From: an uncultured Clostridia bacterium
GTDB lineage: Bacteria; Bacillota; Clostridia; Oscillospirales; Ruminococcaceae
DNA length: 63,781 bases
Assembly (NCBI GenBank): GCA_947175385.1
Contig: CAMWMN010000001.1
Coordinates: forward strand, 1-63,781
Direction: 5' to 3'
Position 1 is the stretch's first letter, and each line of letters begins with the position of its first letter. A program made the translations under genes and the position numbers. The notes beneath the pieces were generated by a model. That model searched no databases. It was given only the letters and a program-made list of their open reading frames with translations, and was not told the origin of the DNA. This document shows positions 13,011-51,100 of the stretch, piece by piece.

Positions 13011-13141
13011 GCAAATCCAAAACCGCACACTTGAAATGTGGCTGCGCCTCATTTCAAGTGTGCTTGCATTAAATCTCGCAAGCGAGCTTTTGCGTTACCT
13101 CACACCTTTGGTGTTCGGCAACGCTTGCATTTTGAATTTGC
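13011..13141 (-). repeat. dispersed structured element, copy A (5' UTR of the hyp-uvrC operon)
   Basis: Closing stem GCAAAUUCAAAA/UUUUGGAUUUGC with internal hairpins; followed by the RBS. Confidence 0.75.
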
Positions 13142-13167
13142 ATGCCTTGCAAAAATTATACATAATT

Positions 13168-13256
13168 ATTATAACATATTTTTTCCTTAATTACAAGGGG
13201 GTATTGCAAATTTCATTGAAAATGGGGTTGCAAAATCTCAAAAAATGTGCTAAAAT
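13168..13256. promoter_or_regulatory. divergent sigma-A promoters (- strand 13168-13196 TTGTAA-17-TATAAT; + strand 13228-13256 TTGCAA-17-TAAAAT)
   Basis: Near-consensus hexamers with 17-bp spacers. Confidence 0.6.
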
Positions 13257-13286
13257 TAAGGAGTAAACGAAAAGAGGATATAGAGA

Positions 13287-14015
13287 ATGTGTGCAAACAG
13301 AGAGAAGTTGAATTTCCGCTGTGGATTGCGTGACGGACTGCCGATTGCGTTGGGGTATTTATCGGTTTCGTTCACGTTCGGGATAACCGCCGTGAATATG
13401 GGGATTCCGCCGATAACTGCGATTCTGATTTCACTTACCAACCTTACAAGCGCAGGGCAAGTCGCGGGAATCGGCATTATCGCCGCACGCGGCGGTCTTG
13501 CGGAGATGGCTATGGCGCAGCTTATCATCAATCTGCGGTATGCGCTGATGAGCCTGTCGCTGTCGCAGAGATTGGATAAAAACTGGAAACTGTTCCATCG
13601 CGTAACCGCCGCTTTCTGCGTTACGGACGAGGTGTTTGCGGTGGCTTCGGGCAAGGCAGACGAGCTTCCAACGCGGTATATGTACGGGCTGATGATATTG
13701 CCGTATCTGTTCTGGGGCGGCGGTACAACGGTCGGAGCACTTCTCGGAGCGGTTCTGCCCGAGATGATAAAATCCGCTCTCGGAATCGCGATATACGGAA
13801 TGTTCATCGCGATAATCATTCCCCCCGCCAAAAAGAGCCGAGGTGTACTGTGCGTGGTGATTATGGCGGCGGCGCTGAGTTGGTTCATTTATTATATGCC
13901 GTACCTTGACTTCATCTCAAGCGGAATCTCCATTATCATCTGCACGGTGATTGCCGCCGCTTTGGGAGCGTTGATTTTCCCGAGAAGCGAAAGCGAGGTG
14001 AACGCGAATGAGTGA
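13287..14015 (+). CDS. azlC: AzlC-family branched-chain amino acid exporter permease
   Basis: PIALGY, SAGQ, INLRY, TDEVFA motifs. Confidence 0.92.
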   Translation: MCANREKLNFRCGLRDGLPIALGYLSVSFTFGITAVNMGIPPITAILISLTNLTSAGQVAGIGIIAARGGLAEMAMAQLIINLRYALMSLSLSQRLDKNWKLFHRVTAAFCVTDEVFAVASGKADELPTRYMYGLMILPYLFWGGGTTVGALLGAVLPEMIKSALGIAIYGMFIAIIIPPAKKSRGVLCVVIMAAALSWFIYYMPYLDFISSGISIIICTVIAAALGALIFPRSESEVNANE

Positions 14016-14319
14016 CGCGGCATATCTATTCGCGTCTGTCGCGGTGATGGCGGGGGTTACATACCTGATTCGTATGCTGCCGCTTGCCGCGTTCAGAAAG
14101 AAAATCCAAAACAAATTTGTCCTGGATTTTCTGTATTATGTGCCTTATGCAGTGCTTTCCGCGATGACGATTCCCGCAGTGTTTTACAGCTCCAACAGTC
14201 TGTTAAGCGCGGCGGCGGGATTTTTGGTCGCGGCGGTTCTTGCGTTCTTCGAGCGCGGACTGCTGACCGTTGCGGTATGCGCGTGCGCAGGAGTGTTTTT
14301 GTTGGAATTAATAATTTAG
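14008..14319 (+). CDS. azlD: AzlD-family membrane protein
   Basis: TYLIRMLP and YVPYAVL motifs; coupled to azlC. Confidence 0.9.
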   Translation: MSDAAYLFASVAVMAGVTYLIRMLPLAAFRKKIQNKFVLDFLYYVPYAVLSAMTIPAVFYSSNSLLSAAAGFLVAAVLAFFERGLLTVAVCACAGVFLLELII

Positions 14320-14418
14320 AAAATCCAAAAAGTCTGAAAATTTGCGAAGCAAATTTTGAGCGGTTCCGAAACGCTGACAAAGCGAACGGAGTCCAAGCGT
14401 TACGGAATTTTGGATTTT
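14320..14418 (+). repeat. dispersed structured element, copy B
   Basis: AAAATCCAAAA/TTTTGGATTTT closing stem, internal AAAATTTGCGAAGCAAATTTT hairpin, then AATAAGGAG. Confidence 0.65.
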
Positions 14419-14439
14419 AATTCAAATAAGGAGATAATC

Positions 14440-15291
14440 ATGAATATAAAGAAAGAGCTTATCAAAACGGCTTGCAACTCAATCCGGCTGAAAATCGGCG
14501 GGGAAAGCGAAAACGCAAAAATCGGCGGAACACGGTTCGGCGGCGCGCCCGATGTTCCGGACGGGTTTGAATGGGATTATTTCGAGGGTAGGGGCAATAT
14601 ACTCGATGATACGGTGAGATCTCGACCGTTGGCATTCATTGCGCAGTTCGACCTCGAAGAGATGGCTCAATATGACACGGACGGGCTGCTCCCAAAGACG
14701 GGCGTGCTGTCGTTTTTCTATGAGCCGGAATCGATGAGGTGGGGATTCGACCCGAAGGATAAGGGCTGCGCGAGAGTGCATTGGTTTCCCGATAAAGACG
14801 CGCTGCATACCGCCGAATTTCCCGACGATCTGGCGGAGGATTACCGATTTCCGATAATGAAGATCTCCGCTAAATCGGAGCTTTCATATCAGAGCTTTGA
14901 GGATTTCGCGCTCCAACGCGCGAAAATGGTGGAATGCTGGGAGGAATTTGAATCCGCGGAGGAAAGCCTCGGCATAGAAGAACCCCTCGAATGCTCCAAG
15001 CTGCTTGGCTGGGCAAACCCGATTCAGGGGAATATGACGCAGGAGTGCGAGTTGATTTCGCGCGGATATTACCTCGGTCACGGCTGGGACGATATTTCCC
15101 CACGCGACAGACAGGAATCCGAACAGTGGGCAAACCGCGACTGGACGCTGCTGTTTCAGCTTGACTGCATTGTGGACGGCAACTTTGAGCTTGCGTTCGG
15201 CGACGGCGGCAGAATTTATTTTTACATTCGTCGCGAGGATTTAGCCGCAAGGAATTTCGACAATGTATGGTTGATTTTACAGTGCTCGTGA
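14440..15291 (+). CDS. YwqG / DUF1963 family protein
   Basis: RFGGAPD, PLAFIAQFDL, LP..G.LSFFY, KLLGW, LLFQLD, FGDGG.IYFYI, ILQC. Confidence 0.88.
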   Translation: MNIKKELIKTACNSIRLKIGGESENAKIGGTRFGGAPDVPDGFEWDYFEGRGNILDDTVRSRPLAFIAQFDLEEMAQYDTDGLLPKTGVLSFFYEPESMRWGFDPKDKGCARVHWFPDKDALHTAEFPDDLAEDYRFPIMKISAKSELSYQSFEDFALQRAKMVECWEEFESAEESLGIEEPLECSKLLGWANPIQGNMTQECELISRGYYLGHGWDDISPRDRQESEQWANRDWTLLFQLDCIVDGNFELAFGDGGRIYFYIRREDLAARNFDNVWLILQCS

Positions 15292-15550
15292 TATGAAAAA
15301 ATCCCCCCTCGGGCGAGGTGGATTATTTCGTATTATTCAGCAGTCAACAGGACGTTCATTTTATAAATCATATCCTTAAGGTTTTCTTCACTTGATTTGC
15401 CATTTCTTCGGCATTGACAGCCAGCCCGCTATTCCGAGAAATTCTCTAAAATTGTATAAACCGAGAAAATACTGTGAAGCTGCCCTTGAATTAAAGCTGA
15501 AAAGACGCTATAATGAACAAAACGATTATGCTAAAATGGAGGACAAATCA

Positions 15551-16291
15551 ATGGGAGCGTTTGAATTGATTGAGAAAAAAGAATATGACACATTTTGTTC
15601 GTTATATTTGGAAAAAGCCCATTTAAGGACAACTCACTCTGAATACGCAGACTTGATGCCTGGAAACTATGTCATAGCCTTAATTGGAGCAAGACAATAT
15701 GAAACTTTGGTGTCCTTTTGTTTAGAAACGATTGAGAAAATCCAACAAAACTCCACCAAAATAGATAGAAGCTCTTCAAAATTTTTTGTTGCTCTAAGTA
15801 TTGGATATTTTGAACTCAAAAAATTCTCAGAAGCTCTACAAGCAATTCGAGATGGTAGCTGGGCTGCTTACCAGGATCGCCCCAGAACACAGGCTCCTGG
15901 TATTCTATACTATGAGGCAACAATACTCAATGATAGGACGGCAAAGCAGGAAAGCAAGAAACTGTTAAACGCCCGTTTAAGAAATAAAAACGCACTATCC
16001 CCTGAATTTGCGGCGGCAAAGTTTTTAGTGGGAAAATGCAGTAGCGAGGAAATGCTCGTTCAAATAAATACACTCCCTTCTGTATTGAGAGAACGAACGA
16101 AAGTGCAAGCATTGTTTTATATGGCAGTAAAGGCATTTGAAATAGGCGATTTCGATGGATACGCAAAGCATCTTAAAGCTGCTTGCGACCTATACTGTAG
16201 TGTTCCAACTGTTGCCGTAGAATTTGAATATCATTTGGCAGAAATCTGTTGCTCTCGAATTTGCTTTTCACCCCCCTCTTGGTTTTTGTAA
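15551..16291 (+). CDS. AT-rich TPR-like helical protein (C-terminus NlpI-like)
   Basis: RBS GGAGGA then ATG at 15551; QALFYMA..A..GD...EFEYHLA pattern. Confidence 0.55.
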   Translation: MGAFELIEKKEYDTFCSLYLEKAHLRTTHSEYADLMPGNYVIALIGARQYETLVSFCLETIEKIQQNSTKIDRSSSKFFVALSIGYFELKKFSEALQAIRDGSWAAYQDRPRTQAPGILYYEATILNDRTAKQESKKLLNARLRNKNALSPEFAAAKFLVGKCSSEEMLVQINTLPSVLRERTKVQALFYMAVKAFEIGDFDGYAKHLKAACDLYCSVPTVAVEFEYHLAEICCSRICFSPPSWFL

Positions 16292-16602
16292 GCTAACGCA
16301 TTTAATCGCATTTACTTATCCTTATAATTTATTACAACACACTTCATAAAAAATGTCAATAGTCAGCATGAGCTTTGTGCAATTTGCACAAAAAGTGTAA
16401 CTAAATTCTATAAGCAATCCCTCTGATGAAACAGGGGAATCATATTGTATGAAAAGTCAAATTTTATCCGATAACCGTACGGCGACAACATTCACGACAT
16501 AATATATAAGATGAATCCCCTCGGGTAATTCCGAGGGGGATTGCTTATGATAAATTTGCGAGAGCGATTGTGAGGATAAAGGCAAAATAATTGTAAAATT
16601 CT

Positions 16603-17358
16603 TTATAAAACGCTAAGGTCGGTGAGAATTTGTTTCATCTGCTCTATGGTCAAATAATCAAATGAGTAGAGGTGATAAATCGCATTATCATAGACGACGT
16701 CAACAGACGTATAAACGTCATCATATCCGTCATTCTGCACCTCCATTAGCACGGCTTTGTTTCCGTCATTCAGTTTTACGCTTTCAATTTTGGATTTCTG
16801 ATTATCTCCCGTCTTGATTGATGCTACGGATGCAGTGCCGCCCTTTACCGAATATTGGCAGTCAACATACAGATTTACGCCTATTGTATTGTGAATCATA
16901 TTGTAGCTGAAAACAACATTTTCAGGGTCAGACCCATCTTCCAATGAATTAGCATGAACATAAACATCACCGGGCTTTAAGGTAAATTTATCATTCATAA
17001 GCGGATTAACGTTGTACATCTTGAATATATCCGTTGGCGAAAAGTCCTCAAAGAAATAGGTGAAATTACGATTATCTCTGTAATGACGCACAATTGCCCC
17101 TGCCTCTTCACAGCCCTTACGCGAAGGAAATTGGATATTTGGAGTGGCATCAAGCTCATAATCGTTCATCTGTGTGCCATTTACATAGAATCCAAACCGT
17201 TCGACATTAGTAAACCCGACAAGCAGAGTTGCCGCAACCGCCGCCGCGATAATCCCCATGCATAAGAAAATAGGTTTCTTGTTTGTTTTTTCTGCGTTTG
17301 TGATAATGCTGTCATCAATGTTGTTCATAGCAACCAACAATGGATTAATGTTATTCAT
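16603..17358 (-). CDS. putative anti-sigma factor, paralog of 1529-2395
   Basis: AMNNIDDSII plus TM; shares SP.D.F....V.PLMND.FT and the C-terminal L.DL.VL with 1529-2395. Confidence 0.75.
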   Translation of the reverse strand: MNNINPLLVAMNNIDDSIITNAEKTNKKPIFLCMGIIAAAVAATLLVGFTNVERFGFYVNGTQMNDYELDATPNIQFPSRKGCEEAGAIVRHYRDNRNFTYFFEDFSPTDIFKMYNVNPLMNDKFTLKPGDVYVHANSLEDGSDPENVVFSYNMIHNTIGVNLYVDCQYSVKGGTASVASIKTGDNQKSKIESVKLNDGNKAVLMEVQNDGYDDVYTSVDVVYDNAIYHLYSFDYLTIEQMKQILTDLSVL

Positions 17359-17900
17359 AATACATTCCCCTTTCGATTAAGTAACTTTTGAGTGCGCCGC
17401 GCAGACGCAAAAGCGCAGTTGTTGCGGCGGTTTGGCTCATCAAGCATTGTTTTGCGGCATCTTTTATTGAGTACATATAGAAATACCGCAGTGTGAACAG
17501 TCGCTGCTGTTTTTCGGGCAGAGAGCAGCCAGTCGTTCAGTGCTTTTGAAAGCTCCGACATTTCCACCGCCCACTCGGTGGAGTCTTGTGACGGAAAACA
17601 TTCATCAAGCTCTGTCAGTAATGCGCTGTCACGAGCCGCTGCCTTGTTGTACCGCAGTCTGTCCACGGTCCGGCGGCGGGCAATTTTACAGATATATGCC
17701 TTCAGATTTTAGGGACGTTCATCATCAAGACTATTCCAGATGTTAAGTAGTGTGTCGTTCGCACACTCCTACGCGTCCTCTGCCGACCGCAGAATACTGC
17801 GGCAAATCTTCAGAATCAGTCGGCTGTATTTGAACTTCAGCTCCGACAGCCCCTTTTGGTCGCGGCTGTTCAGCATATCGGTTATCGCAATGTCCTCCAT
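17351..17900 (-). pseudogene. ECF sigma factor pseudogene (paralog of 970-1539)
   Basis: In-frame TAG (17769-17771) and TAA (17709-17711) where the paralog has Glu, plus a frameshift near 17520. Confidence 0.9.
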
Positions 17901-17914
17901 TTTATCACATCCTG

Positions 17915-17948
17915 TTAATATAGTCGGAATCCATATCTTAAATGTCAC
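17915..17948 (-). promoter_or_regulatory. putative ECF promoter GTGACA-N17-GACTATATTAA
   Basis: Matches 914-947. Confidence 0.6.
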
Positions 17949-17978
17949 TTAATCTGAAAAAGAAAACGTTTGAATAAC

Positions 17979-18009
17979 AAAAAAACCGCCCCGGTTAAGA
18001 GGCGGCTTT
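17979..18009 (-). terminator. intrinsic terminator of the flagellar/che operon
   Basis: CCGCC..GGCGG stem with a T-tract on the minus strand. Confidence 0.75.
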
Positions 18010-18019
18010 CAATATGTAA

Positions 18020-18499
18020 TTAAAACTGCTTGATTCCCTTTGCGGCGGCGCGGATCTCCATTATCCCCGTTTCGGGATAGAAAAACTGCGTGCGTCCATA
18101 GTCAAGACCCGTATCCTCGGCGAGGATAGGAATCCTGTTTGACATAAGAATCCGCTTTACGGCAGCGATATTGCGCTCACCGATGTTGAACTTGTCGCTG
18201 GCAGTAGCAAACATCGTGGCTCCGCCCGCGATTTTCGCTTTAAGACGCGCCTTTGACGCGCCGAGCTGCTCCATCTGGCGGATAAGCATAGGAATCGCCG
18301 TGTCCGCGAACCGCATTGGAGTGGTTGTCGCGTTCACTCCCGAGGTGCTGTCGGGAAGCATAATGTGCGATAATCCGCCGACTCCCGCTTGGCTGTCCAA
18401 AAGGCAAATGCCCACGCAAGAGCCGAGCGCGTAAGTTACCAACACATCAGGCACTCTGCAAACCTTCAAATCTCCGATACCAACCGTAAAATTAGCCAT
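18020..18499 (-). CDS. cheD: chemoreceptor glutamine deamidase
   Basis: LGSCVG, GGLSHIMLP, KIAGGA, NIGERN. Confidence 0.95.
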   Translation of the reverse strand: MANFTVGIGDLKVCRVPDVLVTYALGSCVGICLLDSQAGVGGLSHIMLPDSTSGVNATTTPMRFADTAIPMLIRQMEQLGASKARLKAKIAGGATMFATASDKFNIGERNIAAVKRILMSNRIPILAEDTGLDYGRTQFFYPETGIMEIRAAAKGIKQF

Positions 18500-19116: not shown

Positions 19117-19146
19117 AGTCAGCCCTCCTTTCGGGGATTAACATTT

Positions 19147-20610
19147 TTATCGCAGATTGTTCGCGATTCTTGCCAACTCGTCCGAGGTCGACACCACGCG
19201 GGAACTTATCTGATAAGAACGCTGTGCCTCAATAAGCTTAACCATCATATCAGTCAAATCCACATTGGACGTGATAAGCGCTCCCTCTATCTTTTCCATC
19301 GTGTAGATCCACCCGCCGTTGCCGTCAGGCTCACGGCAAGCAACCGCCTCGCCGCTGCGCAGTGTCTGCACGTAACGGTTATTCGCGCCCGCCTCCAGTC
19401 CGAACGGGTTCGGGAATTGGAATACTCCCACTTCGCGCTTTACCTCAGCCCAATCGGGAACATTAGTATATTCGTCCGCTGCCGCTACCTGGATTCTGCC
19501 GTTGTTCATATCCAACACGAACTCGCCCTGATTGGTTGCGAGATACCACGCGCCGTCATCACCCTGACGTACATCGAATTTGGTGTTGCGTGTATAAACG
19601 ATTCCGTTTTCGCCCTCAACCGCGAAGAAACCGTCTGCGTTGTTCAGCTTTACATTTTCATACGAATCTGTATCCACGATTTTATCGATATTCGCGTTGG
19701 CTGTGGCGTTGCCGTCATAACGCGTTGTATCGTCCGTGTGGAGATTTTCGGGGTTCGCAAGGGTGAACACTCCGACCTGCGCCGCCGCTGCGTTCCAATC
19801 CACGCTGTTGAAATCTCCGATATGCTCGGCATCGGCGAAAGTCAGCTCAATCGGCTTATTATCCGCGTCAAGTATAAACTCGCTCTTCCACGAGCCGAGA
19901 TACCATTTGCCCTCGCTCTCAATCATCGCAAATCTGCCGTCCGTTGTGTAATGTGTTGCGCCCGACTTTTCACGAACCGCGAAATATCCGTTTGCGACGA
20001 GGGTTTGATTCTCAATGTCCGCTGCCGCACCTGTTACCGCAGTGATTTCATCATCGCTTGCGGGAGTGTAATCATAGCGTATCCTTTGCGCGTCAACATT
20101 ATCCATCGTGAACGTGCCGATTCTAGCACTGATGTCATTCCAGTTAATTCCCGCGCGGACGGATTCCTTTGAAACCTCCTCAAACGGGATAACAATGCGC
20201 TCTTGGTCGTAATTCAATACATACTCGCCGGAGCTTGAAATCAAGTACCAATCGCCCGAATCCGGGTCTTGCGTCATTCCAAAGCAACCATCGCGGGTAT
20301 AATTCACATCGCCATAGCGATCCTGAACCGCAAACCAACCCTCGCCGACAATTGCCATATCCTGGGGACGTTCGGTTTCGACAAAGTGCGATTCCGAAAA
20401 CATCAAGTCGGTTTTCTGGATATATGTTCCGTGACCTGTCTGCCAGTCGGGTTCGGGCGAACGCTCCTTGACATAAATGCAGTCCGCGAAGCTCGGACGA
20501 AGCGTCTGATAACCATTCGTGTTGACATTGGCAATGTTGTTTCCGTAGATGTCAATCGCCTTGCCCTGCGCTATCATCGCGGATTTTCCGGTGTGGAATG
20601 ATATATTCAT
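19147..20610 (-). CDS. flgG: flagellar distal rod protein FlgG-like with a triplicated central domain (487 aa)
   Basis: NNIANVNT.GY N-terminus, SNVDL..QRSY C-terminus; three G(W/Y/F)FAV..YT repeats. Confidence 0.8.
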   Translation of the reverse strand: MNISFHTGKSAMIAQGKAIDIYGNNIANVNTNGYQTLRPSFADCIYVKERSPEPDWQTGHGTYIQKTDLMFSESHFVETERPQDMAIVGEGWFAVQDRYGDVNYTRDGCFGMTQDPDSGDWYLISSSGEYVLNYDQERIVIPFEEVSKESVRAGINWNDISARIGTFTMDNVDAQRIRYDYTPASDDEITAVTGAAADIENQTLVANGYFAVREKSGATHYTTDGRFAMIESEGKWYLGSWKSEFILDADNKPIELTFADAEHIGDFNSVDWNAAAAQVGVFTLANPENLHTDDTTRYDGNATANANIDKIVDTDSYENVKLNNADGFFAVEGENGIVYTRNTKFDVRQGDDGAWYLATNQGEFVLDMNNGRIQVAAADEYTNVPDWAEVKREVGVFQFPNPFGLEAGANNRYVQTLRSGEAVACREPDGNGGWIYTMEKIEGALITSNVDLTDMMVKLIEAQRSYQISSRVVSTSDELARIANNLR

Positions 20611-20633
20611 TATTATTCTCCTTATTTTTAATA

Positions 20634-20745
20634 GCAAATTCAAAACCGCGCAAATGAAATCCGCTTTACAGATTTCATTTGTGCTTGCTAAGCGACCCGT
20701 TACACCGCTGTGCGGTGTAACGCGCCGCTTGCATTTTGAATTTGC
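20634..20745 (-). repeat. dispersed structured element, copy C (before the flgG RBS)
   Basis: Perfect GCAAATTCAAAA/TTTTGAATTTGC stem with two internal hairpins. Confidence 0.8.
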
Positions 20746-20840
20746 ACGAGTCGCCAATGGGGTGTTTCCGGTTATAACGCGCTATATTTGTGCCACTCGC
20801 TTTCGCAATTTGCATTTCACCCTAAGTACATAAATATAAA

Positions 20841-24480: not shown

Positions 24481-24507
24481 AAAATTCTGTTCTCCTTATC
24501 TTAATTT

Positions 24508-24577
24508 GAAATTCCGAAACCGCTCTCTTCACTTCGTTCGCTATCCGAGCGCCACGGCACGCTTGCAGCTTCAGAAA
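24508..24577 (-). repeat. dispersed structured element, copy D (before the flhA RBS)
   Basis: Shares CTCGG.TAGCGAACGAAGTGA with copy G and CGGTTTCGGAATTTCAAA with copy H. Confidence 0.7.
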
Positions 24578-24597
24578 CCGCTTAATATTACAGGACA

Positions 24598-25662: not shown

Positions 25663-25761
25663 TACTCAACCCTTACTACAATTTGCAAATTCCGCACAGC
25701 ACGGACGAGCTTCGCTCGTCACTTCAAAACTGTCCACTGTCAACTATACACTTTACACTGT

Positions 25762-26822: not shown

Positions 26823-26848
26823 ATATTAAATACTCCTTATTTTGATTG

Positions 26849-27064
26849 GCAAATCGCAAAACGGGCAAACCTCACTCCGCTTCGTTCATTTGCCCTAGCC
26901 AAGTGTTACATTTCACCTTCGGTGCAATGTAACACTTACTTTTGCGATTTGCACGCGACTTATCTAAATGGCAAACCCCAAACCGTACACACCTTCGGTG
27001 TGTACTCGCTAAACGAACCCTCACACCTGCGATGCTTTGGCTTCACTTGACGTTTTGGGTTTGC
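26849..27064 (-). repeat. two tandem copies of the structured element (F1 26849-26952, F2 26971-27064)
   Basis: Closing stems GCAAATCGCAAAA/TTTTGCGATTTGC and GCAAACCCAAAA/TTTGGGGTTTGC; CACCGAAGGTG hairpins. Confidence 0.8.
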
Positions 27065-28838: not shown

Positions 28839-28862
28839 TATCTCTTCTCCTTATTTAGATTT

Positions 28863-28946
28863 CAAATTGCAAACCGCTCACTTCGTTCGCTAGCCGAGCA
28901 ATTCTCCTCCGCTCCGCTTCGTCAAATTACTCGCTTTTGCAATTTG
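28863..28946 (-). repeat. dispersed structured element, copy G (before the cheY RBS)
   Basis: CAAATTGCAAA/TTTGCAATTTG stem. Confidence 0.75.
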
Positions 28947-33526: not shown

Positions 33527-35581
33527 TTATCTCTTAAGAGATAACAGCTCCTCGATCATTGTATCGGAAACTGTGATTACACGTGAGTTTGCCTGATAAC
33601 CTCTCTGGGTGGTGATCATATTCGTAAACTCGTCCGCGAGGTCTACGTTGGACATTTCCAACGCGCCGGAAACAACTTCGCCCGCACCCTCTGTGCCGGG
33701 AACATTGAGCTTCACGGGTCCGGAAGCAACTGTTTCCTTGAACATCGTGCCGCCTACCTTTTGAAGACCGTTATTGTTGTCAAATGTTGCCAAATCAATT
33801 CTGCCGATTTCGATGTAACCGTGAATCGCGTGCTTAGCGATGATTCTGCCGTCCGCCTGAATGGTGAAGTCGGTAACGTTGCCCCAGGACTGCTCGCTGC
33901 CCGTGCGTCCGTTTTCGAGGGCGAATGTGCCGAGCTTCTTGGCGGTTTCGGTGTAGAACGAGTCCTTGCCGTCTGCGGGTCTTACTGCGGGGTAGTCGCC
34001 GAAGAACGCCGCGCGCGCACCAGGATTCCAGACATCGGCAGCATCCTTTGTCGGTACACCTGTAACATTACCGTTAGCGTCTCTGGTCGCGTATGTACCG
34101 TCGTACCCATTGCCGTACTCCAGACCGCTTATCTGATTGAACTTAAGAATCTTCTTTTCAACGCCGCGCGCCGCCGCCTTAATCGCCTCGTTTACCTCGG
34201 CAATCGTTGTGTTGTCGCAAATTATAATGTTCAGGTTGTTTTCGTCCCATACCGCGTTGGTCTTGTCATAGCCGCCGACATATGAGAAAGTTACCTTGTA
34301 GTTGTTTGCGTACTCGCCCTCAACCATTGCCTCAAGCTCGAACGCGCCATCGGTGCTGTCCACTACGCCGGCAAGAGCCTGCGCAGGCAGACCGCCAATC
34401 GCTGAAAGCACCTTTGCTCTATTCGAACCGGAGGGCATTACAAATCCCGTAACCTTCAGCTCGGGAGCTTCCGAGTTTTCTTTAAGGTGCGCCTTGATTG
34501 CGTTGGTGATGTCCGCTGCCACGGTATCATCATAAACGGTAATTGCCCATGTGCCGGGGTTACCGTTTGTTCCCGCTGTATAAGTCGCTGATGCTGCATT
34601 TGTGCCTGCGGTCGCATTGCCAGCAGTGTAATTGATTTTAACGGTGTCCTTGTTGGTATTGTCCTCCACCGAGAAGCCGACATACGCGTGCTTTGCAACC
34701 GTACCTGCGTCAGCCGGAATTGTTCCGTCGTCATTATACGATACGTGGAACTGCGTGCTTGCGGTGGTGGTAGAGAATCTCAAACCAGAAATCTCATTGT
34801 GCGCGGTAAGAGCCTCTGTATCGTTAGGAACAGACTCAAAGCTGAAGTTCAACTGAACTTCATCGGGAAGCGAAACGCCGCCCGCTTTAAGAGCCAGCGC
34901 GATCGCGTCCTCGAAATCCTGCTGAGAATTGTATTGCTCATCGCGGTTGAAGAATATCGTCAAAATGCTGTCCGAGAAAGACGCAAACGGATAGGTGCTG
35001 TCCACGAAGGAAACCGTCATATCCGTGTAGTTGGACGGCGCTGTAACCGACAGGGTAACGTTTGTGCCGTTTACCATCTTGGTAGCCGAAGAGGTATTCG
35101 CGTTCGTATCAGGGATTACCGCGCGGATGATCTCCGTGCCGGGCTGCTGACCCTCGGAGTTTCCGTTTACACCGAGAACGTGATAACCATCAGCATTTAC
35201 GAGGTATCCGTAATCGTCAAAGTGGAAGTTACCCTGACGAGTGTAGTAAATGTTGCCCGAGCCGTCCATTACCTGGAAGAAGCCGTTGCCGTTGATTGCC
35301 AGGTCCTCGACCTTATCCGACGAAGTGTAACCCGACTGAGACATATTCGCCTCAACTGCGTTTACCTGAACGCCGTAACCAACCATTCTGGGGTTTACGC
35401 CGCCCAATGTAGAAGTTGCGCCCGAGGGGCTTCTCTTGGTCTGATAGAACGAATCCTTGAAAGTAACTACATCGGTCTTGTAACCAACGGTGTTTACGTT
35501 AGCTACGTTGTTACCGATAACGTCCATTCTCTGCTGGTGGGCTTTCATGCCCGTAACACCTGTGAAAAGTGATTTAACCAT
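33527..35581 (-). CDS. flgE: flagellar hook protein with a large insertion (684 aa)
   Basis: GNNVANVNTVGYK, YYTRQGNF, LEMSNVDLADEF..QRGYQANSR. Confidence 0.92.
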   Translation of the reverse strand: MVKSLFTGVTGMKAHQQRMDVIGNNVANVNTVGYKTDVVTFKDSFYQTKRSPSGATSTLGGVNPRMVGYGVQVNAVEANMSQSGYTSSDKVEDLAINGNGFFQVMDGSGNIYYTRQGNFHFDDYGYLVNADGYHVLGVNGNSEGQQPGTEIIRAVIPDTNANTSSATKMVNGTNVTLSVTAPSNYTDMTVSFVDSTYPFASFSDSILTIFFNRDEQYNSQQDFEDAIALALKAGGVSLPDEVQLNFSFESVPNDTEALTAHNEISGLRFSTTTASTQFHVSYNDDGTIPADAGTVAKHAYVGFSVEDNTNKDTVKINYTAGNATAGTNAASATYTAGTNGNPGTWAITVYDDTVAADITNAIKAHLKENSEAPELKVTGFVMPSGSNRAKVLSAIGGLPAQALAGVVDSTDGAFELEAMVEGEYANNYKVTFSYVGGYDKTNAVWDENNLNIIICDNTTIAEVNEAIKAAARGVEKKILKFNQISGLEYGNGYDGTYATRDANGNVTGVPTKDAADVWNPGARAAFFGDYPAVRPADGKDSFYTETAKKLGTFALENGRTGSEQSWGNVTDFTIQADGRIIAKHAIHGYIEIGRIDLATFDNNNGLQKVGGTMFKETVASGPVKLNVPGTEGAGEVVSGALEMSNVDLADEFTNMITTQRGYQANSRVITVSDTMIEELLSLKR

Positions 35582-38376: not shown

Positions 38377-38401
38377 TTGTACACCTCCTTATCTTGAATT
38401 T

Positions 38402-38507
38402 GAAATTCCGAAACCGTTCCTCAACCCTTGCTTCGCAAGAATTTCGTCACTATCCGAGAGTCCCGTCACACCTTCGGTGTGACACGCCGTTCGATTTTCG
38501 AAATTTC
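38402..38507 (-). repeat. dispersed structured element, copy H (before the fliK RBS)
   Basis: GAAAUUUCGAAA/UUUCGGAAUUUC stem; GTCACACCGAAGGTGTGAC and CTTGCGAAGCAAG hairpins. Confidence 0.78.
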
Positions 38508-39012: not shown

Positions 39013-39060
39013 CTCTTATCCCTCTTATCTTAATTTGCAACTCTGAAACCGCGCCTCAAA

Positions 39061-42436: not shown

Positions 42437-42460
42437 TTTAATCCCTCCTCAGTTTACGCG

Positions 42461-44104: not shown

Positions 44105-44154
44105 TAAGTAATAAGCCTCCTAAACAGCCTTGACGGCGCAATCACCAAAGCCGC

Positions 44155-44508: not shown

Positions 44509-44571
44509 TAAATTTGTCCTCCGGTATTATATAATTAATAATGTATCACCCGCCGCTATGGGCGGAAACTA

Positions 44572-45048: not shown

Positions 45049-45060
45049 ATTTTACCTCCA

Positions 45061-45426: not shown

Positions 45427-45498
45427 TACAATCCCTCATTTCTTATATTCGTGCTATTTTAGGGCATAACTTGCCCATAGCAAATTATCTTACTTTTA

Positions 45499-45527
45499 AT
45501 TATACACCATTTTTCTTAAAATTTCAA
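45499..45527 (-). promoter_or_regulatory. sigma-A promoter of the fla/che operon (TTGAAA-17-TATAAT)
   Basis: Near-consensus. Confidence 0.7.
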
Positions 45528-45722
45528 GCCTTTGGGACAAATTTTTTCTCTTATTTAATAAGCATATGTTTCCGAAACAGGGAAATTGTGGGAATTTTTA
45601 CGTAAAAAAAAGCTTTTTTAAGCCCTTTTTTGACATCATTGTGCATAATTAATAAACCGAGGGCAAAAATTTCGTCGAAATCACCAATAGCGTCCAAAAT
45701 AATGGATTTTTTGAAAAATCCC

Positions 45723-45751
45723 TTGACAAAAACAAATTTCTGTGATAAAAT
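45723..45751 (+). promoter_or_regulatory. sigma-A promoter of the trp leader (TTGACA-17-TAAAAT)
   Basis: Near-consensus. Confidence 0.75.
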
Positions 45752-45784
45752 ATAATAGCAATTAAATATGCCCTTAAAAACCAA

Positions 45785-46086
45785 TGAAGCAGAGATAAAG
45801 ATATTTGTGCACTCACAGAGAGCGGACGATGCTGAGAGTTCCGCAGAACGCAGAGTATCAAATGGACTGCCGAGGGCGCGGTCAAAGAGATTCTTAATGC
45901 AGATTCGTGTTTTGGCGCGGATTTGCGGAATCGGAATTTCGAGTATTCCGCGACGTGTGCGAGCGTTAATCGCGGGGATATGTTTGTATCCGATGAGTGC
46001 GCGGTTTTCCGCGAAATAAGGTGGCAACGCGGTGAGTTTTCTCCGTCCTTATGACAGAATTATTCTGTTTTAGGGCGGTTTTTTTG
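45785..46086 (+). promoter_or_regulatory. Trp T-box riboswitch
   Basis: AGAGAG and GCTGAGA stem-I motifs, specifier TGG at 45863-45865, T-box AAGGTGGCAACGCG near 46018-46031, terminator 46041-46085. Confidence 0.9.
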
Positions 46087-46114
46087 TGCAATTTTACGTA
46101 AGAGGAGGCAGATT

Positions 46115-47587
46115 ATGCTTACACCAACCCTTGAGGAGGCGCAAAAGCTCTCCGAGTACGGCGTTATTCCGATTAAACGCGAAATTTTCGCTGACATCAA
46201 AACCCCAATCGAGGTGCTGAAAATCCTGCGCGGGGTCAGCCGCCACGTGTACATTCTCGAATCGGTCGAGGATCGCGAAAAATGGGGACGCTATACATTT
46301 CTCGGCTATAACCCCGCGTTGGAAATCTCATGCCTTGACGGTGAGCTTACCGTCAAGAATATCCAAACCGGTGAGGTTACGAGCCAAAAGACTGCCCACC
46401 CGGCGAACTATATCAGCGATTTAATGCGCGAATACACCTCTCCAAAACTAAAGGGATTTCCGAGTTTTACGGGCGGTCTGGTGGGCTACTTCGGCTACGA
46501 CTACATCAAGTACAACGAGCCTCGCCTGAAATTGGACGCTCCCGATGAGGAATGCTTTAAGGACGTGGATTTGATGCTGTTTGACAAGGTAATCGCGTTT
46601 GATAATGTTCAACAAAAAATTATCCTGATTACTAACATTTCCACCAAAAATATTGTTGAAGAGTACAAAAAAGCAGAAATGGATTTGGACGAAATGACGA
46701 ATCTGATTCGGCACGGAAAACCCGCCGAAATCCCGCCCGCGAAACTAAAAAGTGAGTTCCGCCCGTTGTTCACCAAAGAGCGGTTCTGCGAAATGGTAGA
46801 TTGCGCAAAGCATTACATTTTTGAGGGCGACATCTTTCAGGTTGTGTTGTCAAACCGCTTGGACGCTGACTTTGAGGGCAGTCTGTTTGACGTTTACCGC
46901 GTGCTGAGAACCACCAATCCGTCGCCGTATATGTTTTACTTTTCGAGCGATGATATGGAGGTCGCGGGAGCGTCGCCCGAAACGCTTGTAAAGCTGGAGG
47001 ACGGCATTTTGCACACTTTCCCGATTGCGGGTTCACGTCCACGCGGGCGCGATGAAGCCGAGGACGCGAAATTCGAGGCTGAACTGCATACAGACGAAAA
47101 AGAGCTTTCCGAACACAATATGTTGGTGGATCTGGGGCGGAACGACTTGGGCAGAATTTCCAAATTCGGCAGTGTTGAGGTCGAAAAATATATGCAGATT
47201 CTCAAATTCTCGCACATTATGCACATCTGCTCGACCGTGCGCGGCGAGATAAGAAGCGGTCTGACGGCGCTTGACGCGGTAAATTCAGTGCTGCCGGCGG
47301 GAACGCTGTCGGGCGCGCCGAAAATACGCGCGTGCGAAATCATCAACGAGCTTGAGCAGAACAAGCGCGGAATCTACGGCGGCGCGGTGGGCTACATCGG
47401 ATTTTCGGGCAGCCTTGACACCTGTATCGGAATACGGCTGTGCTACAAGAAAAATGGACGCGTTTTTGTGCGCTCAGGCGGCGGAATCGTAGCAGACAGC
47501 GTTCCCGAAACCGAGTATATGGAGAGCGTCAACAAGGCAAAGGCGGTCGTGAACGCGCTTGAAACAGCGCAGAGGGAGGATTTATGA
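46115..47587 (+). CDS. trpE: anthranilate synthase component I
   Basis: LES, GDIFQVVLS, NPSPYM, EH.MLVDLGRND, PAGTLSGAPK. Confidence 0.97.
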   Translation: MLTPTLEEAQKLSEYGVIPIKREIFADIKTPIEVLKILRGVSRHVYILESVEDREKWGRYTFLGYNPALEISCLDGELTVKNIQTGEVTSQKTAHPANYISDLMREYTSPKLKGFPSFTGGLVGYFGYDYIKYNEPRLKLDAPDEECFKDVDLMLFDKVIAFDNVQQKIILITNISTKNIVEEYKKAEMDLDEMTNLIRHGKPAEIPPAKLKSEFRPLFTKERFCEMVDCAKHYIFEGDIFQVVLSNRLDADFEGSLFDVYRVLRTTNPSPYMFYFSSDDMEVAGASPETLVKLEDGILHTFPIAGSRPRGRDEAEDAKFEAELHTDEKELSEHNMLVDLGRNDLGRISKFGSVEVEKYMQILKFSHIMHICSTVRGEIRSGLTALDAVNSVLPAGTLSGAPKIRACEIINELEQNKRGIYGGAVGYIGFSGSLDTCIGIRLCYKKNGRVFVRSGGGIVADSVPETEYMESVNKAKAVVNALETAQREDL

Positions 47588-48153
47588 TTCTGCTTATTGA
47601 TAATTATGACAGTTTTTCATATAATTTGTTTCAGTTAATTGGTGAGATTGACGAAAATATTAAGGTGATTCGCAATGACGAGCTGACTCCCGAAGAGATT
47701 TTGGAGCTTGCTCCCGCACATATCATCATTAGTCCGGGACCCGGAAAGCCGCGTAACGCGGGCATTTGTGAGGATTTGATCCTAAAGGCGGCGGGGAAAA
47801 TCCCGATTTTGGGAGTGTGTCTGGGGCACCAGGCAATCTGCGAGGTGTTTGGAGCGACAGTCACCTACGCGAAGCAGCTTATGCACGGCAAAAAGTCGTT
47901 GATTAAATTCGATTCCGAAGCCGTGATTTTCCACGGCTTGGACGGGGATTTTGAGGTCGCGCGGTATCATTCGTTGGCGGCAGCGAACGATGGTTTTCCT
48001 AGTGAATTGCGCGTTACAGCGCGGACATATGACGGCGAAATTATGGCGGTAGAGCACGAAAAATTCCCGATTTTTGGGCTGCAATTTCACCCGGAAAGTA
48101 TACTCACTCAGCACGGCAAAAAAATGATGCAAAACTTCCTCGAAATCGGGTGA
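47584..48153 (+). CDS. trpG: anthranilate synthase component II
   Basis: IDNYDSF, SPGPG, GVCLGHQ, QFHPES. Confidence 0.96.
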   Translation: MILLIDNYDSFSYNLFQLIGEIDENIKVIRNDELTPEEILELAPAHIIISPGPGKPRNAGICEDLILKAAGKIPILGVCLGHQAICEVFGATVTYAKQLMHGKKSLIKFDSEAVIFHGLDGDFEVARYHSLAAANDGFPSELRVTARTYDGEIMAVEHEKFPIFGLQFHPESILTQHGKKMMQNFLEIG

Positions 48154-48380
48154 TTTTCCGGGTTTTTTCGGGGACAAAATCCGCGAAAAAACCACCTCAA
48201 AAAAATTGCCGAATCGAGCGTCAAAATCAGCCCATTTTCGGGCATGTTGAAAATCTCGATATTCAGCTTGATTAAGCCGTTTTGACGGTGGGAGATACGC
48301 TTTTTTCAAGCGTGATTTTCGGAGGTTTTTGAGGTAGTTTTCATGCGCGAAATCCGCGTGATTTCAGCAGCAAAATCAAC
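48151..48380. repeat. long imperfect palindrome (MITE-like) between trpG and trpD
   Basis: Nested inverted repeats TGATTTT/AAAATCA, AAAACCACCTCAAAAA/TTTTTGAGGTAGTTTT, CGTCAAAA/TTTTGACG. Confidence 0.55.
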
Positions 48381-48415
48381 GTAAAAAGTCCACTTATTTT
48401 TTGGAGGTAATTTCA

Positions 48416-49426
48416 ATGATTAAAGAGGCGATTTTCAAGGTCGCGAACGGCGAACATATGACCTATGATGAAGCGGCAACGGTTATGCGGGAGATTATGA
48501 TGGGCGATACAACGCCTGCCCAGACCTCGGCATACCTCACCGCAATGCATATCAACGGCGAGAACATTGACGAGGTGAGCGCGTCCGCGTATGTTATGCG
48601 CGACTGCGCCGACCGCGTGACGTACAACGGCGATGTGATGGAGATTGTCGGCACGGGCGGTGACGGTGCGCAGTCCATCAATGTTTCCACCATTTCGGGG
48701 ATTGTCTGCGCGGCAGCGGGCGCAAAGGTTGCCAAGCACGGCAACCGTGCTGCGTCCTCGAAATGCGGCGCGGCGGACTGCCTGGAGGCTCTCGGTGTGC
48801 GTATCTCCGTATCGCCGGAGGGCTGCGCGCGGCTGTTGGACGAGGTTGGTATGTGCTTCATGTTCGCGCAGCGATACCACACCGCAATGAAATATGTCGG
48901 TCCGGTTCGTAAGGAAATCGGAATCCCGACCGTGTTCAATATTCTCGGACCGCTCACCAACCCGGCTCACGCGAATTTACAGTTACTGGGAGTATATAAA
49001 AAAGAGCTGCTGATGCCAATGGCGAAAACCCTCTCAAAGCTCGGTGTAAAGCGCGGAATGGCTGTTTTCGGTCAAGACGGTCTGGACGAGATTTCCGTTG
49101 GCGCGCCCACAAGCATTGTGGAGTTTGAGGGCGAGAAATTCAACGAATATGAAATCACCCCCGAGCAGTTTGGGTTGCCGCGTCACGACATCTCGGAGCT
49201 GCGCGGCGGCGAGCCCTCCGTCAACGCAGGTCTGGCGCAGAAAATCCTCGGCGGCGAAAGCGGCGCGGGGCGCGATTCTGTGCTGTTGAATGCGGGCACG
49301 GCACTGCATATTTATAAAGGTATCACGATTGACGAGGGCATAAAGCTTGCTGCCGAAACAATCGACAGCGGAGCGGCATTGAAAACTCTGGAGAAATTTG
49401 TAAATATCTCCAATGAACTGGAGTGA
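48416..49426 (+). CDS. trpD: anthranilate phosphoribosyltransferase
   Basis: VGTGGDG, KHGNRA.SSK.G.AD, FNILGPL.NP. Confidence 0.97.
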   Translation: MIKEAIFKVANGEHMTYDEAATVMREIMMGDTTPAQTSAYLTAMHINGENIDEVSASAYVMRDCADRVTYNGDVMEIVGTGGDGAQSINVSTISGIVCAAAGAKVAKHGNRAASSKCGAADCLEALGVRISVSPEGCARLLDEVGMCFMFAQRYHTAMKYVGPVRKEIGIPTVFNILGPLTNPAHANLQLLGVYKKELLMPMAKTLSKLGVKRGMAVFGQDGLDEISVGAPTSIVEFEGEKFNEYEITPEQFGLPRHDISELRGGEPSVNAGLAQKILGGESGAGRDSVLLNAGTALHIYKGITIDEGIKLAAETIDSGAALKTLEKFVNISNELE

Positions 49427-50220
49427 GCACCATGATTTTAGACGAAATTTCGGAAAAAACCCGTGAGCGAATCGCCGAAAGAGAGCGTCAAATCCCGCTT
49501 GCGGAGATTCGGAATGCCGCCGAGAATATGCCAAACAGCGGCAATTTTCCGTTCAAGAGAATACTTATGAACAATGATATTTCGTTCATTTGCGAGGTGA
49601 AGAAGGCAAGCCCCTCGAAGGGCATAATCGCCGAGGATTTTCCGTATATGCAAATCGCGCGTGAGTATGAAAACGCGGGCGCGGCGGCGATTTCCTGTCT
49701 TACAGAACCGTTTTGGTTCAAGGGCAGCGATGAATATCTTCGCGAAATTACGCGGAATGTGAAAATTCCCGTACTGCGCAAGGACTTCACGATAAGTTCG
49801 TATATGATTTACGAGGCTAAAGCGTTAGGCGCGGCGGCTGTGCTGCTGATTTGCGCGATTCTGGACGAGGGCGAGCTGCGCGAATATCTGGCTCTCACGC
49901 ATTCGTTAGGGCTGTCGGCATTGGTGGAGGCTCACAACGAATCCGAGATTGAAACGGCGGTGAAAATTGGCGCGGAGATTATCGGAGTGAACAACCGCGA
50001 TTTGCGGACGTTCTCGGTGGATACGGACAATTCCGCGCATTTGCGGAATCTTGTTCCGCGCGACAGAATTTTCGTATCCGAAAGCGGAATCCAGTCCGCT
50101 GAGGACGTGCGTAAACTCCGTGAAATGGGCGCAAACGCGGTTCTAATCGGCGAAACGCTGATGCGCGCGCCCGATAAGCGCGCCAAGCTGGACGAACTGA
50201 GGGGACAAAATGAGCGTTAA
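49423..50220 (+). CDS. trpC: indole-3-glycerol phosphate synthase
   Basis: EVKKASPSKG, LRKDF, GVNNRDL, VSESGI. Confidence 0.97.
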   Translation: MSTMILDEISEKTRERIAERERQIPLAEIRNAAENMPNSGNFPFKRILMNNDISFICEVKKASPSKGIIAEDFPYMQIAREYENAGAAAISCLTEPFWFKGSDEYLREITRNVKIPVLRKDFTISSYMIYEAKALGAAAVLLICAILDEGELREYLALTHSLGLSALVEAHNESEIETAVKIGAEIIGVNNRDLRTFSVDTDNSAHLRNLVPRDRIFVSESGIQSAEDVRKLREMGANAVLIGETLMRAPDKRAKLDELRGQNER

Positions 50221-50833
50221 AATCAAGCTCTGCGGAATGTTCCGCGATGAGGACATCGACTACGTGAACGAGGCTCTGCCCGACTACATCGGGTTTATCG
50301 TGATGTTCCCGAAAAGCCACCGCAATATCGACCTTGAAACGGCTCTGCGGCTGAAGAAACGGCTTGATTCGCGTATCAAATCCGTTGCTGTTTCGGTGGA
50401 CGCACCCGTGGAGCAGTTCGCGGAGTTCGCGCATTCGGGCGCAGCGGATCTGCTCCAACTCCACGGAAACGAGAATGCGGAATACATCTCGCGGCTACGA
50501 ACGCTTACAAACGTTCCGATAATCAAAGCGGTCAAGGTCACGGACTTTTCCGATATTAAGGCGGCTGAAACGCTTGACGCGGATTTCCTGCTGCTGGACA
50601 GCGGTACGGGTTCGGGGAAAGCGTTCGACCACTCGGTGATTCGTCGCGCGGAAATCAAGAAACCGTTCTTTCTTGCAGGGGGACTTACTCCCGAAAATCT
50701 TGCGCAAGCCGCTCGGAAGGTTAATCCGTATGCGGTGGATTTGTCCAGCGGAATCGAAACGAACGGGCTCAAGGACAGAGAGAAGATTCTCGCGGCGGTA
50801 GACGCGGTACGCGCGGTAAAAATCCACGGCTGA
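50210..50833 (+). CDS. trpF: phosphoribosylanthranilate isomerase
   Basis: KLCG, QLHG.E, LAGGL, DLSSG.E. Confidence 0.96.
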   Translation: MSVKIKLCGMFRDEDIDYVNEALPDYIGFIVMFPKSHRNIDLETALRLKKRLDSRIKSVAVSVDAPVEQFAEFAHSGAADLLQLHGNENAEYISRLRTLTNVPIIKAVKVTDFSDIKAAETLDADFLLLDSGTGSGKAFDHSVIRRAEIKKPFFLAGGLTPENLAQAARKVNPYAVDLSSGIETNGLKDREKILAAVDAVRAVKIHG

Positions 50834-50834
50834 C

Positions 50835-51100
50835 TTTTGAAGTGCGGTGCGCGCGAAGAAATTCTCCGAGTCTCAGTCAACGTTTTGACTACGTGCCGTG
50901 CGAAGCACAGAATTTCTGAGTGCACGCCGCACGGCTTCCGCGAGTGACTCCGAGTGCCGATACTAGCAACCCGATAATTCAAAACAAGTTGTAAAGGTAC
51001 TCGGAGTCAGGAGCGGAAGCCTTCGATTGGTGTTGGAACCGTGAAACCAAAAAGATATATCGTCCGGGAGAATAGTGATTTCCCGACAAGTTACAAAACT
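50835..51100 (+). repeat. structured intergenic region, probably divergent copies of the dispersed element
   Basis: TTTTGAA..TTCAAAA closing stem (50835-50984), GTGCGAAGCAC hairpin, a second unit, then CAGGAGG RBS. Confidence 0.5.

What the first reader, a model, noticed from the sequence alone, without database searches (positions are those of the whole stretch)
13011..51100. Dispersed, covarying structured element placed immediately 5' of ribosome-binding sites
Seen: about 10 copies at 13011-13141(-), 14320-14418(+), 20634-20745(-), 24508-24577(-), 26849-26952(-), 26971-27064(-), 28863-28946(-) and 38402-38507(-), with partial copies near 25684-25730 and 39024-39053 and a divergent one at 50835-51100(+). 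In mRNA sense each has a closing stem whose sequence changes while pairing is kept: GCAAAUUCAAAA/UUUUGAAUUUGC, GCAAAUCGCAAAA/UUUUGCGAUUUGC, GCAAACCCAAAA/UUUGGGGUUUGC, CAAAUUGCAAA/UUUGCAAUUUG, GAAAUUUCGAAA/UUUCGGAAUUUC, AAAAUCCAAAA/UUUUGGAUUUU. Most have CGG before the 3' arm and two variable inner arms, often capped by CCGAAGG or GCGAAGC. Nearly all are followed within ~10 nt by (A)UA(A)GGAG and a start codon (hyp-uvrC, ywqG-like, flgG, flhA, fliQ, cheY, fliK). Orientation follows transcription, and stem deviations in copies A, D and H are G.U wobbles only on the mRNA strand. Inference: an undescribed cis-acting RNA family that sets processing, stability or translation, and so subunit stoichiometry, inside long operons, as reported for intergenic stem-loops of clostridial cellulosome operons. 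The alternative is a domesticated REP/HUH-transposase substrate, since GCGAAGC is a very stable ssDNA hairpin.
Basis: partly seen in the sequence, partly recalled or inferred. Interest (0 to 1): 0.85.

Follow-up and report, generated by a model that had tools for sequence, protein, structure and literature searches.

The report
Hairpin repeat that overwrites gene leaders
A gut clostridium carries about 200 copies of a branched hairpin repeat that sits against gene starts with its own ribosome-binding site and has overwritten the native leader sequences; it is likely a self-spreading DNA element of unknown mechanism rather than a conserved RNA regulator.

Summary
The genome has about 200 loci, nearly all in the sense of the next gene (147 same, 1 opposite with an SD-free profile). 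The closing stem ends 10-11 nt before the SD in 122 of 136 copies. Covariation is real; no Rfam match. The conserved-regulator reading fails. Against a 93%-identical sister genome, 44 of 140 occupied orthologous sites score in only one genome. Where both carry a copy, the two are no more alike than random copies (0.65 vs 0.63). New copies replace native DNA from the upstream stop or -10 box to the SD/ATG, with no duplication seen. Loops are 3-nt DNA mini-hairpin types; the RNA-optimal cUUCGg version is avoided (27:2). Best reading: a selfish, modular, SD-bearing repeat, folded on the coding strand and spread by copy-over replacement, REP2-like in layout. No Y1/RAYT or IS110 transposase was found in the three high-copy genomes, and the enzyme is unknown. 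RNA effects are plausible but untested.

The parts
20616..20838 (-). Full flgG-leader element: 5' partial stem module, ~40-nt GTTATAAC unit, three-way-junction core (20634-20745), tail and SD
   Evidence: run X1 skips 20623-20839 with 66 other letters; G108 has a short empty spacer
20618..20625 (-). ATAAGGAG SD carried by the element, 7 nt before the flgG ATG (20610)
   Evidence: sequence; G108 allele has a different G-rich SD
13011..13141 (-). Core copy A before a hypothetical gene (12654-12992) and uvrC; lies just after a native sigma70-like promoter (-35 at 13196, -10 ending 13168)
   Evidence: near-identical copy in G040
14320..14433 (+). Subfamily B copy with SD (14426-14433) before a DUF1963 gene (14440-15291)
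   Evidence: (92 bits)
24492..24577 (-). Short copy D with SD before flhA
   Evidence: different stem subtype at the same site in G040
25684..25745 (-). Degenerate remnant before flhB (heptamer run plus one hairpin)
   Evidence: no profile hit; replaced allele in run X1
26833..27064 (-). Tandem pair of cores (26971-27064 and 26849-26952) with one SD (26833-26840) before fliQ
   Evidence: one short copy in G040; empty in G108 and X1-X3
28847..28946 (-). Core with SD before cheY
   Evidence: remnant in G040, partial in G108
38385..38507 (-). Core H with SD before fliK
   Evidence: empty site in G040
39019..39054 (-). 3'-module remnant before fliJ
   Evidence: 19.9 bits; shorter remnant in G040, none in G108

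Best explanation
This is a modular repeat family that ends in its own Shine-Dalgarno sequence and has replaced native leader DNA in front of about 200 unrelated genes; it is likely a selfish DNA element that spreads by copying over existing sequence, likely through a folded single-stranded form of the coding strand and an unidentified enzyme or host recombination. SHOWN: anatomy (5' heptamer run rich in stop codons, 0-4 ~40-nt units, three-way-junction core, A/T tail, ATAAGGAG); sense orientation independent of the contig's majority strand; gains in separate lineages; replacement of host DNA from the upstream stop or -10 box to a junction between SD and ATG, with no target duplication seen; swapping of resident copies for other copies. 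INFERRED: the 3' junction uses the short SD-spacer-ATG likeness between donor and target; resident copies are overwritten by gene conversion from other copies; the folded substrate is DNA, not RNA; the host tolerates the element because it restores the SD (and often a stop codon) that it destroys. Effects on mRNA processing, stability and translation would be by-products that vary from site to site.
For: Orientation 147:1 with an SD-free profile; convergent spacers 1 of 190 vs 175 of 2082 others (p = 3e-6); majority-strand genes 53 of 961, minority-strand 13 of 140. G000 vs G040 (842 orthologues in 1.19 of 2.7 Mb): both 96, G000 only 20, G040 only 24, neither 702. Orthologous cores median identity 0.65, random pairs 0.63, best non-orthologue 0.85, element-free non-coding controls 0.87; the orthologue is the best match in 13 of 56. 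Closing stem changed on both arms in 42 of 66 parsed shared sites. Empty/filled pairs show replacement. Outgroup-polarised gains, e.g. C8:33159 in G000 and C46:11370 and C7:37634 in G040. Runs X1 and X2 hold an empty fliQ spacer like G108's. ATAAGGAG precedes 105 of 188 element genes vs 56 of 2183 others; AAAGGAG 1 of 188 vs 175 of 2183. 162 of 162 G000 cores are distinct and modules are mixed. 3-nt loops 166 of 214 (G000) and 141 of 188 (G040) vs 12 of 102 in terminator-like hairpins. CCGAAGG 27 vs CCTTCGG 2, GCGCAGC 117 vs 7 on the mRNA strand. d(GCGAAGC) Tm 76.5 C, r(GCGAAAGC) 39 C (PMC13037366, passages).
Against: No enzyme was found, so the mechanism of de novo gain is not shown. G.T bias, fixed 10-11 nt spacing and a free SD (0.58 vs 0.48 unpaired) fit an RNA role equally well. 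The commonest loop, GCAAAGC (127 vs 40), is not in the mini-hairpin review (0 occurrences); that AAA loops are stable in DNA is recalled. Shared sites are far more common than chance (96 of 140 occupied; 18 of 40 occupied three-way sites in all three genomes), and in G071/G090 several sites are shared, so retention by selection is possible. Some 'one genome only' sites are sub-threshold or subfamily-B copies or deletion remnants, so 44 overstates true gains and losses. About 6-8 of the 42 'both arms changed' calls look like parsing artefacts. Elements favour high-CAI genes (58 of 428 top fifth vs 9 of 427 bottom), which fits either reading.
Confidence: 0.6

Rival explanations
1. A host-selected cis-acting RNA leader (5' stabiliser or RNase Y/J processing signal with a strong SD) that tunes mRNA stability, translation or operon stoichiometry, as in clostridial SRPS stem-loops.
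For: Sense strand folds better in 145 of 162 cores; G.U bias; SD free and at fixed spacing. Real covariation. 148 copies lie between co-directional genes. A cip-cel stem-loop with an A/U-paired base directs cleavage upstream of itself (PMC10311766, passages), and this element also has an A/U-rich basal stem.
Against: Sites are not conserved between close relatives. Copies are swapped wholesale, so covariation can arise without selection on RNA. Loops are DNA-type and avoid cUUCGg. The tail motif is missing from 88 of 101 genomes of the genus. Targets are unrelated genes.
Confidence: 0.17
2. An ordinary non-autonomous MITE/REPIN-like element that inserts broadly through a transposase supplied in trans or now lost; flush placement arises afterwards from deletion and purifying selection.
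For: Palindromic and modular like BOX or REPIN; GNA-capped hairpins resemble HUH substrates (recalled); deletion remnants exist (cheY, C63:11523); MAGs often lose IS contigs.
Against: Harmless convergent spacers are almost empty (1 of 190) and reverse copies are nearly absent. No target duplication or fixed ends seen. No PF01797 in G000, G040 (99% complete) or G108; no IS110; no element in 73 loci around recombinase, RT, TnpB-like, Rep_trans and rve hits.
Confidence: 0.15
3. A retroposed (SINE-like) RNA copied into gene starts by a reverse transcriptase, giving intact 3' ends and variable 5' ends.
For: The 3' end is constant and the 5' end varies; orientation follows transcription; each of the three high-copy genomes has an RT.
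Against: The three RTs are of different kinds by sequence inspection (group II intron-like, DGR-like, long nitrilase-fused type) and none is near a copy. The 5' junction can fall between the -10 box and the expected +1. Loops are DNA-type.
Confidence: 0.05

Closest known systems
Neisseria REP2 repeats and Borrelia IR-A/IR-B (PMC3184786, passages read)
   Same: Intergenic repeat without TIRs, two internal stem-loops, carries an RBS, sits immediately upstream of unrelated ORFs; mechanism of spread unknown.
   Different: REP2 has 23-26 copies and carries promoter and ATG; this family has ~200 loci, usually follows a native promoter or stop, is closed by a covarying basal stem, is modular and is overwritten in place. 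No sequence comparison to REP2 was run.
Streptococcal BOX elements (PMC3049150, passages read)
   Same: Composite repeat with terminal modules and a variable number of ~40-45-nt internal units; folds when transcribed; can alter downstream expression.
   Different: BOX is linked to ISSpn2-like TIRs and is not described in the passages read as SD-bearing or flush with start codons.
REP/REPIN with RAYT (TnpA-REP, Y1 HUH) (PMC6006769 passages; PMC3337134 and PMC3116915 listing only)
   Same: High-copy extragenic palindromes with ssDNA-type hairpins, vertically kept, lineage-specific.
   Different: No Y1 gene found in three carriers; strict sense orientation at gene starts; convergent spacers avoided; host DNA replaced.
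SRPS stem-loops of the Ruminiclostridium cellulolyticum cip-cel operon (PMC10311766 passages; PMC4423207 listing only)
   Same: Intergenic stem-loops in long clostridial operons; one has an A/U-paired base.
   Different: SRPS loops are gene-specific structures with unconserved flanks, not a dispersed repeat; here sites turn over between sister species.
TAACTGA heptamer repeats of Beggiatoaceae (PMC4679880, passages)
   Same: Heptamer runs (this element's 5' AGTTGAY run is a related word on the other strand), forward-oriented near start codons.
   Different: Those repeats overlap and lack an SD; here the heptamers are the far 5' end and an SD is supplied.
IS900-type IS110 elements that insert at RBS-start codon sites (recalled; one search did not confirm it)
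   Same: Targeting of translation initiation regions.
   Different: No IS110 transposase in the three carriers; no precise insertion.

Membership tests
Rfam structured RNA families | Score above a family's gathering threshold | tested here: not met
   0 hits in the window; E<=0.1 scan of 60 kb of G040 gave only a T-box, a tRNA and a sub-threshold miRNA hit
REP2-like RBS-bearing repeats | Carries an RBS and lies immediately upstream of unrelated ORFs in sense | tested here: met
REP2-like RBS-bearing repeats | Two internal stem-loops, no terminal inverted repeats | tested here: met
   element ends (heptamers, SD) are not inverted repeats, although the core has a closing stem
REP2-like RBS-bearing repeats | Carries its own promoter and ATG | tested here: inconclusive
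   Copies often follow a native -10 box shared with the empty allele; a TTGACA-17-CATAAT-like match is visible in the 5' module but untested; the junction lies at or before the ATG
Neisseria REP2 (sequence family) | Sequence homology to REP2 | not tested
   no REP2 sequence was fetched
REP/REPIN-RAYT | Cognate Y1 (PF01797) gene flanked by copies | tested here: not met
   0 of 3 carriers (97%, 99%, 88% complete); control rang in 6 of 14
REP/REPIN-RAYT | Insertion in either orientation, common in convergent spacers (recalled) | tested here: not met
   147:1 orientation; 1 of 190 convergent spacers
MITE (DDE-mobilised) | Target-site duplication and fixed TIR ends | tested here: not met
   29 empty/filled pairs inspected by eye show replacement, not duplication; a 5-nt ATAAG repeat at fliK is the one suggestive case
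IS110/IS900-type | IS110 transposase present | tested here: not met
   PF02371 0 of 3 carriers, 1 broken hit in G009
SRPS processing stem-loop | Endonucleolytic cleavage next to the stem and differential transcript stability | not testable with these tools
   needs RNA data for this organism
SRPS processing stem-loop | Stem-loop stays with its gene across relatives | tested here: not met

The most novel reading that the evidence does not exclude
A class of transposase-free selfish DNA that targets translation starts: a folded coding-strand ssDNA donor invades at the SD-ATG micro-homology, overwrites the whole native leader or gene junction, and stays harmless by supplying its own stop codons and SD. 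It would continually rewrite the 5' UTRs of about 8% of genes, including core genes such as rpoB, and standardise their ribosome-binding sites.
Probability: 0.35. Interest if true: 0.82.

Novelty: new variant of a known kind. Interest (0 to 1): 0.6.

Why it matters
How RBS-bearing repeats such as REP2 spread is an open question (PMC3184786). This family supplies what that question needs: about 200 loci, sister genomes at 93% and 86% identity, polarised gains, mapped junctions, and evidence that copies overwrite both native leaders and each other. It is also a warning for comparative RNA discovery: strong covariation, G.U bias and a fixed 5'-UTR position here go with site turnover and copy swapping, not with a conserved regulator. 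If the element does affect stability or translation, it is a natural, portable leader for clostridial expression.

Tried and rejected
Enzyme hunt. PF01797: none in G000, G040, G108. PF02371: none in these three. PF07282: only weak hits in large unrelated frames. PF05635 four-helix bundle: 0 of 5. PF04986: 0 of 5, but the control rang nowhere, so uninformative. PF00589, PF00078, PF02486, PF00239 and PF00665 have hits, but no element lies in the 73 loci fetched around them (not every hit had a locus). An HUH-motif regex over 2443 called G000 proteins gave 5 hits, three relaxase-like, none next to a copy. No paralogous gene family is tied to the element. DDE families other than rve were not searched. 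Viral contigs: 0 matches for two patterns. Metagenome scan: 5 matches, all chance 21-mers without a core. Order-wide draw: 93 matches in G000, single matches in 2 of 400 others, not followed up. Sequencing runs: no RNA holder listed. IS900 RBS targeting was not confirmed in the one paper read. A hand-written structure had the wrong length, so RNAalifold was used. 'Only 3 of 101 genomes' was dropped after a relaxed pattern showed a sister family. Replication-strand orientation was rejected (majority-strand proxy). Integron attC and ssi/sso readings were considered from motif likeness only and not tested. Literature searches that found no description of this family: (open-licence library only; no supplements were read).
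Full report
Setting. The window is contig C1 of G000 (2.47 Mb, 171 contigs, 97% complete), a flagellated clostridium with fliY, cheC/cheD and a YlbJ-like gene. The closest named FlhA record is an uncultured Ruminococcus sp. (96% over residues 350-695, L017). Related DNA at about 92-93% identity lies in gut metagenome runs.

Observation. The listed copies exist with the stems described. The flgG copy folds at z about -8 as either RNA or DNA. Profiles built from 75 seed copies find 228 3'-modules at >=12 bits with 0 in the reversed genome, or 202 merged loci including subfamily B. Rfam gives nothing. In 42 distinct 110-nt cores aligned without gaps, 41 consensus pairs are 90.7% paired against 72.8 +/- 0.6% in column shuffles, and 34 pairs show double changes. 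RNAalifold on 16 copies gives a three-way junction with 31 of 46 pairs doubly changed. These shuffles ignore relatedness. The 50835-51100 element is a different family.

Anatomy. Complete copies read, in mRNA sense: a run of 1-4 AGTTGAY-like heptamers; an arm complementary to the next module; 0-4 units of ~40 nt starting GTTATAAC; the core (A/T-rich closing stem, two variable hairpins); a short A/T tail; ATAAGGAG. Of 31 G000 copies with the 5' module, 18 follow an upstream stop (8 within 12 nt or inside the module), 3 follow a promoter match only and 10 neither by my rules. The stem ends 10-11 nt before the SD in 122 of 136 copies, and the SD is predicted to be more open than in controls (0.58 vs 0.48). 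All 162 G000 cores differ in sequence, and stem, hairpin 1 and hairpin 2 types are mixed with only partial association.

Placement. With a profile that contains no SD, 147 hits face a same-strand gene, 1 faces an opposite one and 10 have no gene downstream (genes from my own caller). Elements occupy 148 of 1907 co-directional, 27 of 175 divergent and 1 of 190 convergent spacers (Fisher p = 3e-6). They precede 53 of 961 majority-strand and 13 of 140 minority-strand genes, so orientation follows transcription. Targets are unrelated genes (rpoB, alaS, pyruvate kinase and fabD by N-terminal sequence, recalled labels) and skew to high codon adaptation.

Distribution. An exact 3' pattern is in 3 of 101 genomes of the genus (32, 29, 29 copies). 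A relaxed tail pattern is in 13 of 101: 74-89 copies in G000, G040, G108; 3-15 in six others; 1-2 in four. Regions chosen around such hits in G009, G090, G071, G073 and G107 show a sister family with a different closing stem but the same junction, tail, SD and placement (29 sites printed). A 5' pattern has 93 matches in G000 and single matches in 2 of 400 other genomes of the order.

Turnover. In 1.19 Mb of G040 (contigs chosen because they held copies), 842 orthologues (mean 93% identity) split as both 96, G000 only 20, G040 only 24, neither 702. Some single-genome calls are sub-threshold variants or remnants. At 56 shared sites with full cores, the two copies are 0.65 identical (random pairs 0.63, best non-orthologue 0.85, element-free non-coding controls 0.87), and the orthologue is the best match in 13. 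The closing stem is changed on both arms in 42 of 66 parsed sites, including rpoB whose coding start is 99.6% identical; about 6-8 are parse artefacts. In 29 hand-picked empty/filled pairs, the filled allele lacks native sequence from just after the -10 box or upstream stop to a junction between SD and ATG, sometimes with whole genes missing; no duplication was seen. With G108 (0.31 Mb, 219 orthologues, 86%) as outgroup, several gains are polarised. Runs X1-X3 independently show the fliQ and cheY spacers replaced by short unrelated sequence, the fliQ one resembling G108. The element's SD word precedes 105 of 188 element genes but only 56 of 2183 others, while the native AAAGGAG precedes 1 vs 175, so the SD comes with the element. 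Against this, 96 of 140 occupied sites are shared, so copies tend to persist once present.

DNA or RNA. The mRNA-sense strand is the folded one: G.T over A.C 50:12 in closing stems and 66:24 in inner stems; it folds better in 145 of 162 cores as RNA and 143 of 162 as DNA. The loops are 3 nt in 166 of 214 and 141 of 188 hairpins, against 12 of 102 in terminator-like hairpins of the same genome. They are mostly G-N-A or A-A-A. CCGAAGG occurs 27 times and its complement, the RNA cUUCGg loop, twice. GCGNAGC motifs are very stable as DNA and the tested RNA analogue is much weaker (PMC13037366, passages). This favours a coding-strand ssDNA form but does not exclude RNA effects; the AAA loop is not covered by that paper.

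Mechanism. Shown: sense-oriented, SD-bearing, replacing, swapping. Inferred: a folded coding-strand donor pairs with the SD-spacer-ATG region of a target, is copied over the native leader, and ends at a 5' point limited by promoter or stop; resident copies are overwritten by conversion from other copies. No candidate enzyme was found, and the search was not exhaustive. Confidence 0.6; selected cis-RNA 0.17; ordinary MITE/REPIN with later selection 0.15; retroposition 0.05.

Known relatives. It works like Neisseria REP2 and Borrelia IR (RBS-bearing, two stem-loops, upstream of ORFs; PMC3184786 passages) and is modular like BOX (PMC3049150 passages). It fails the tested membership features of REP-RAYT, MITE, IS110 and SRPS. 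Searches of the open library found no description of this family. Unchecked notes from this scan report similar RBS-abutting repeats in other lineages; they are leads, not support.

Verdict. Real, undescribed as far as searched, a new variant of the REP2-like kind. Its interest lies in leader replacement and in-place swapping without a known transposase. Interest 0.6.

Noticed in passing
window 50835-51109 (+): Long palindromic element between trpF and an alpha/beta hydrolase gene; not this family; two partial relatives (G000 C161, G040 C9).
   Followed up: partly
window 46115-55292: trp operon is interrupted by a hydrolase, a chorismate-mutase-like gene and a methyltransferase; in G040 the latter two are missing and an element sits before trpB.
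   Followed up: partly
L002 (G009) and L010 (G018), fliR-flhB spacer: Other long palindromic repeats (about 200 nt) occupy the fliR-flhB spacer in these relatives.
   Followed up: no
L191 (G108:C60): DGR-like reverse transcriptase with an upstream Avd-like gene, by sequence inspection.
   Followed up: no
L192 (G000:C104) and L194 (G040:C25): A >1000-aa RT, probably nitrilase-fused and defence-related (recalled type), is 99.5% identical between genomes that are otherwise 93% alike, next to a tyrosine recombinase: likely recent transfer.
   Followed up: no
L190 (G040:C1:145207): Group II intron-like RT with one internal stop.
   Followed up: no
G040:C1 175000-178000 and G000:C6:256 orthologue: Small toxin-antitoxin-like or Fic gene pairs are present in one genome and absent in the other at element-bearing junctions.
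   Followed up: no
G000:C16:25582 upstream; G108 L-loci: Pure heptamer-repeat hairpins (AGTTGAC/TCAACTG runs) occur without the core, suggesting the 5' module is a separate older repeat.
   Followed up: no
window 19147-20610 and 33527-35581: FlgG-like (about 487 aa) and FlgE (684 aa) proteins are unusually long, with large central insertions.
   Followed up: no
L274-L293 (G090, G071, G073, G107): Sister-family hairpins carry stacked purine-rich internal loops (repeated GA mismatches) that can only form on the mRNA-sense strand.
   Followed up: partly
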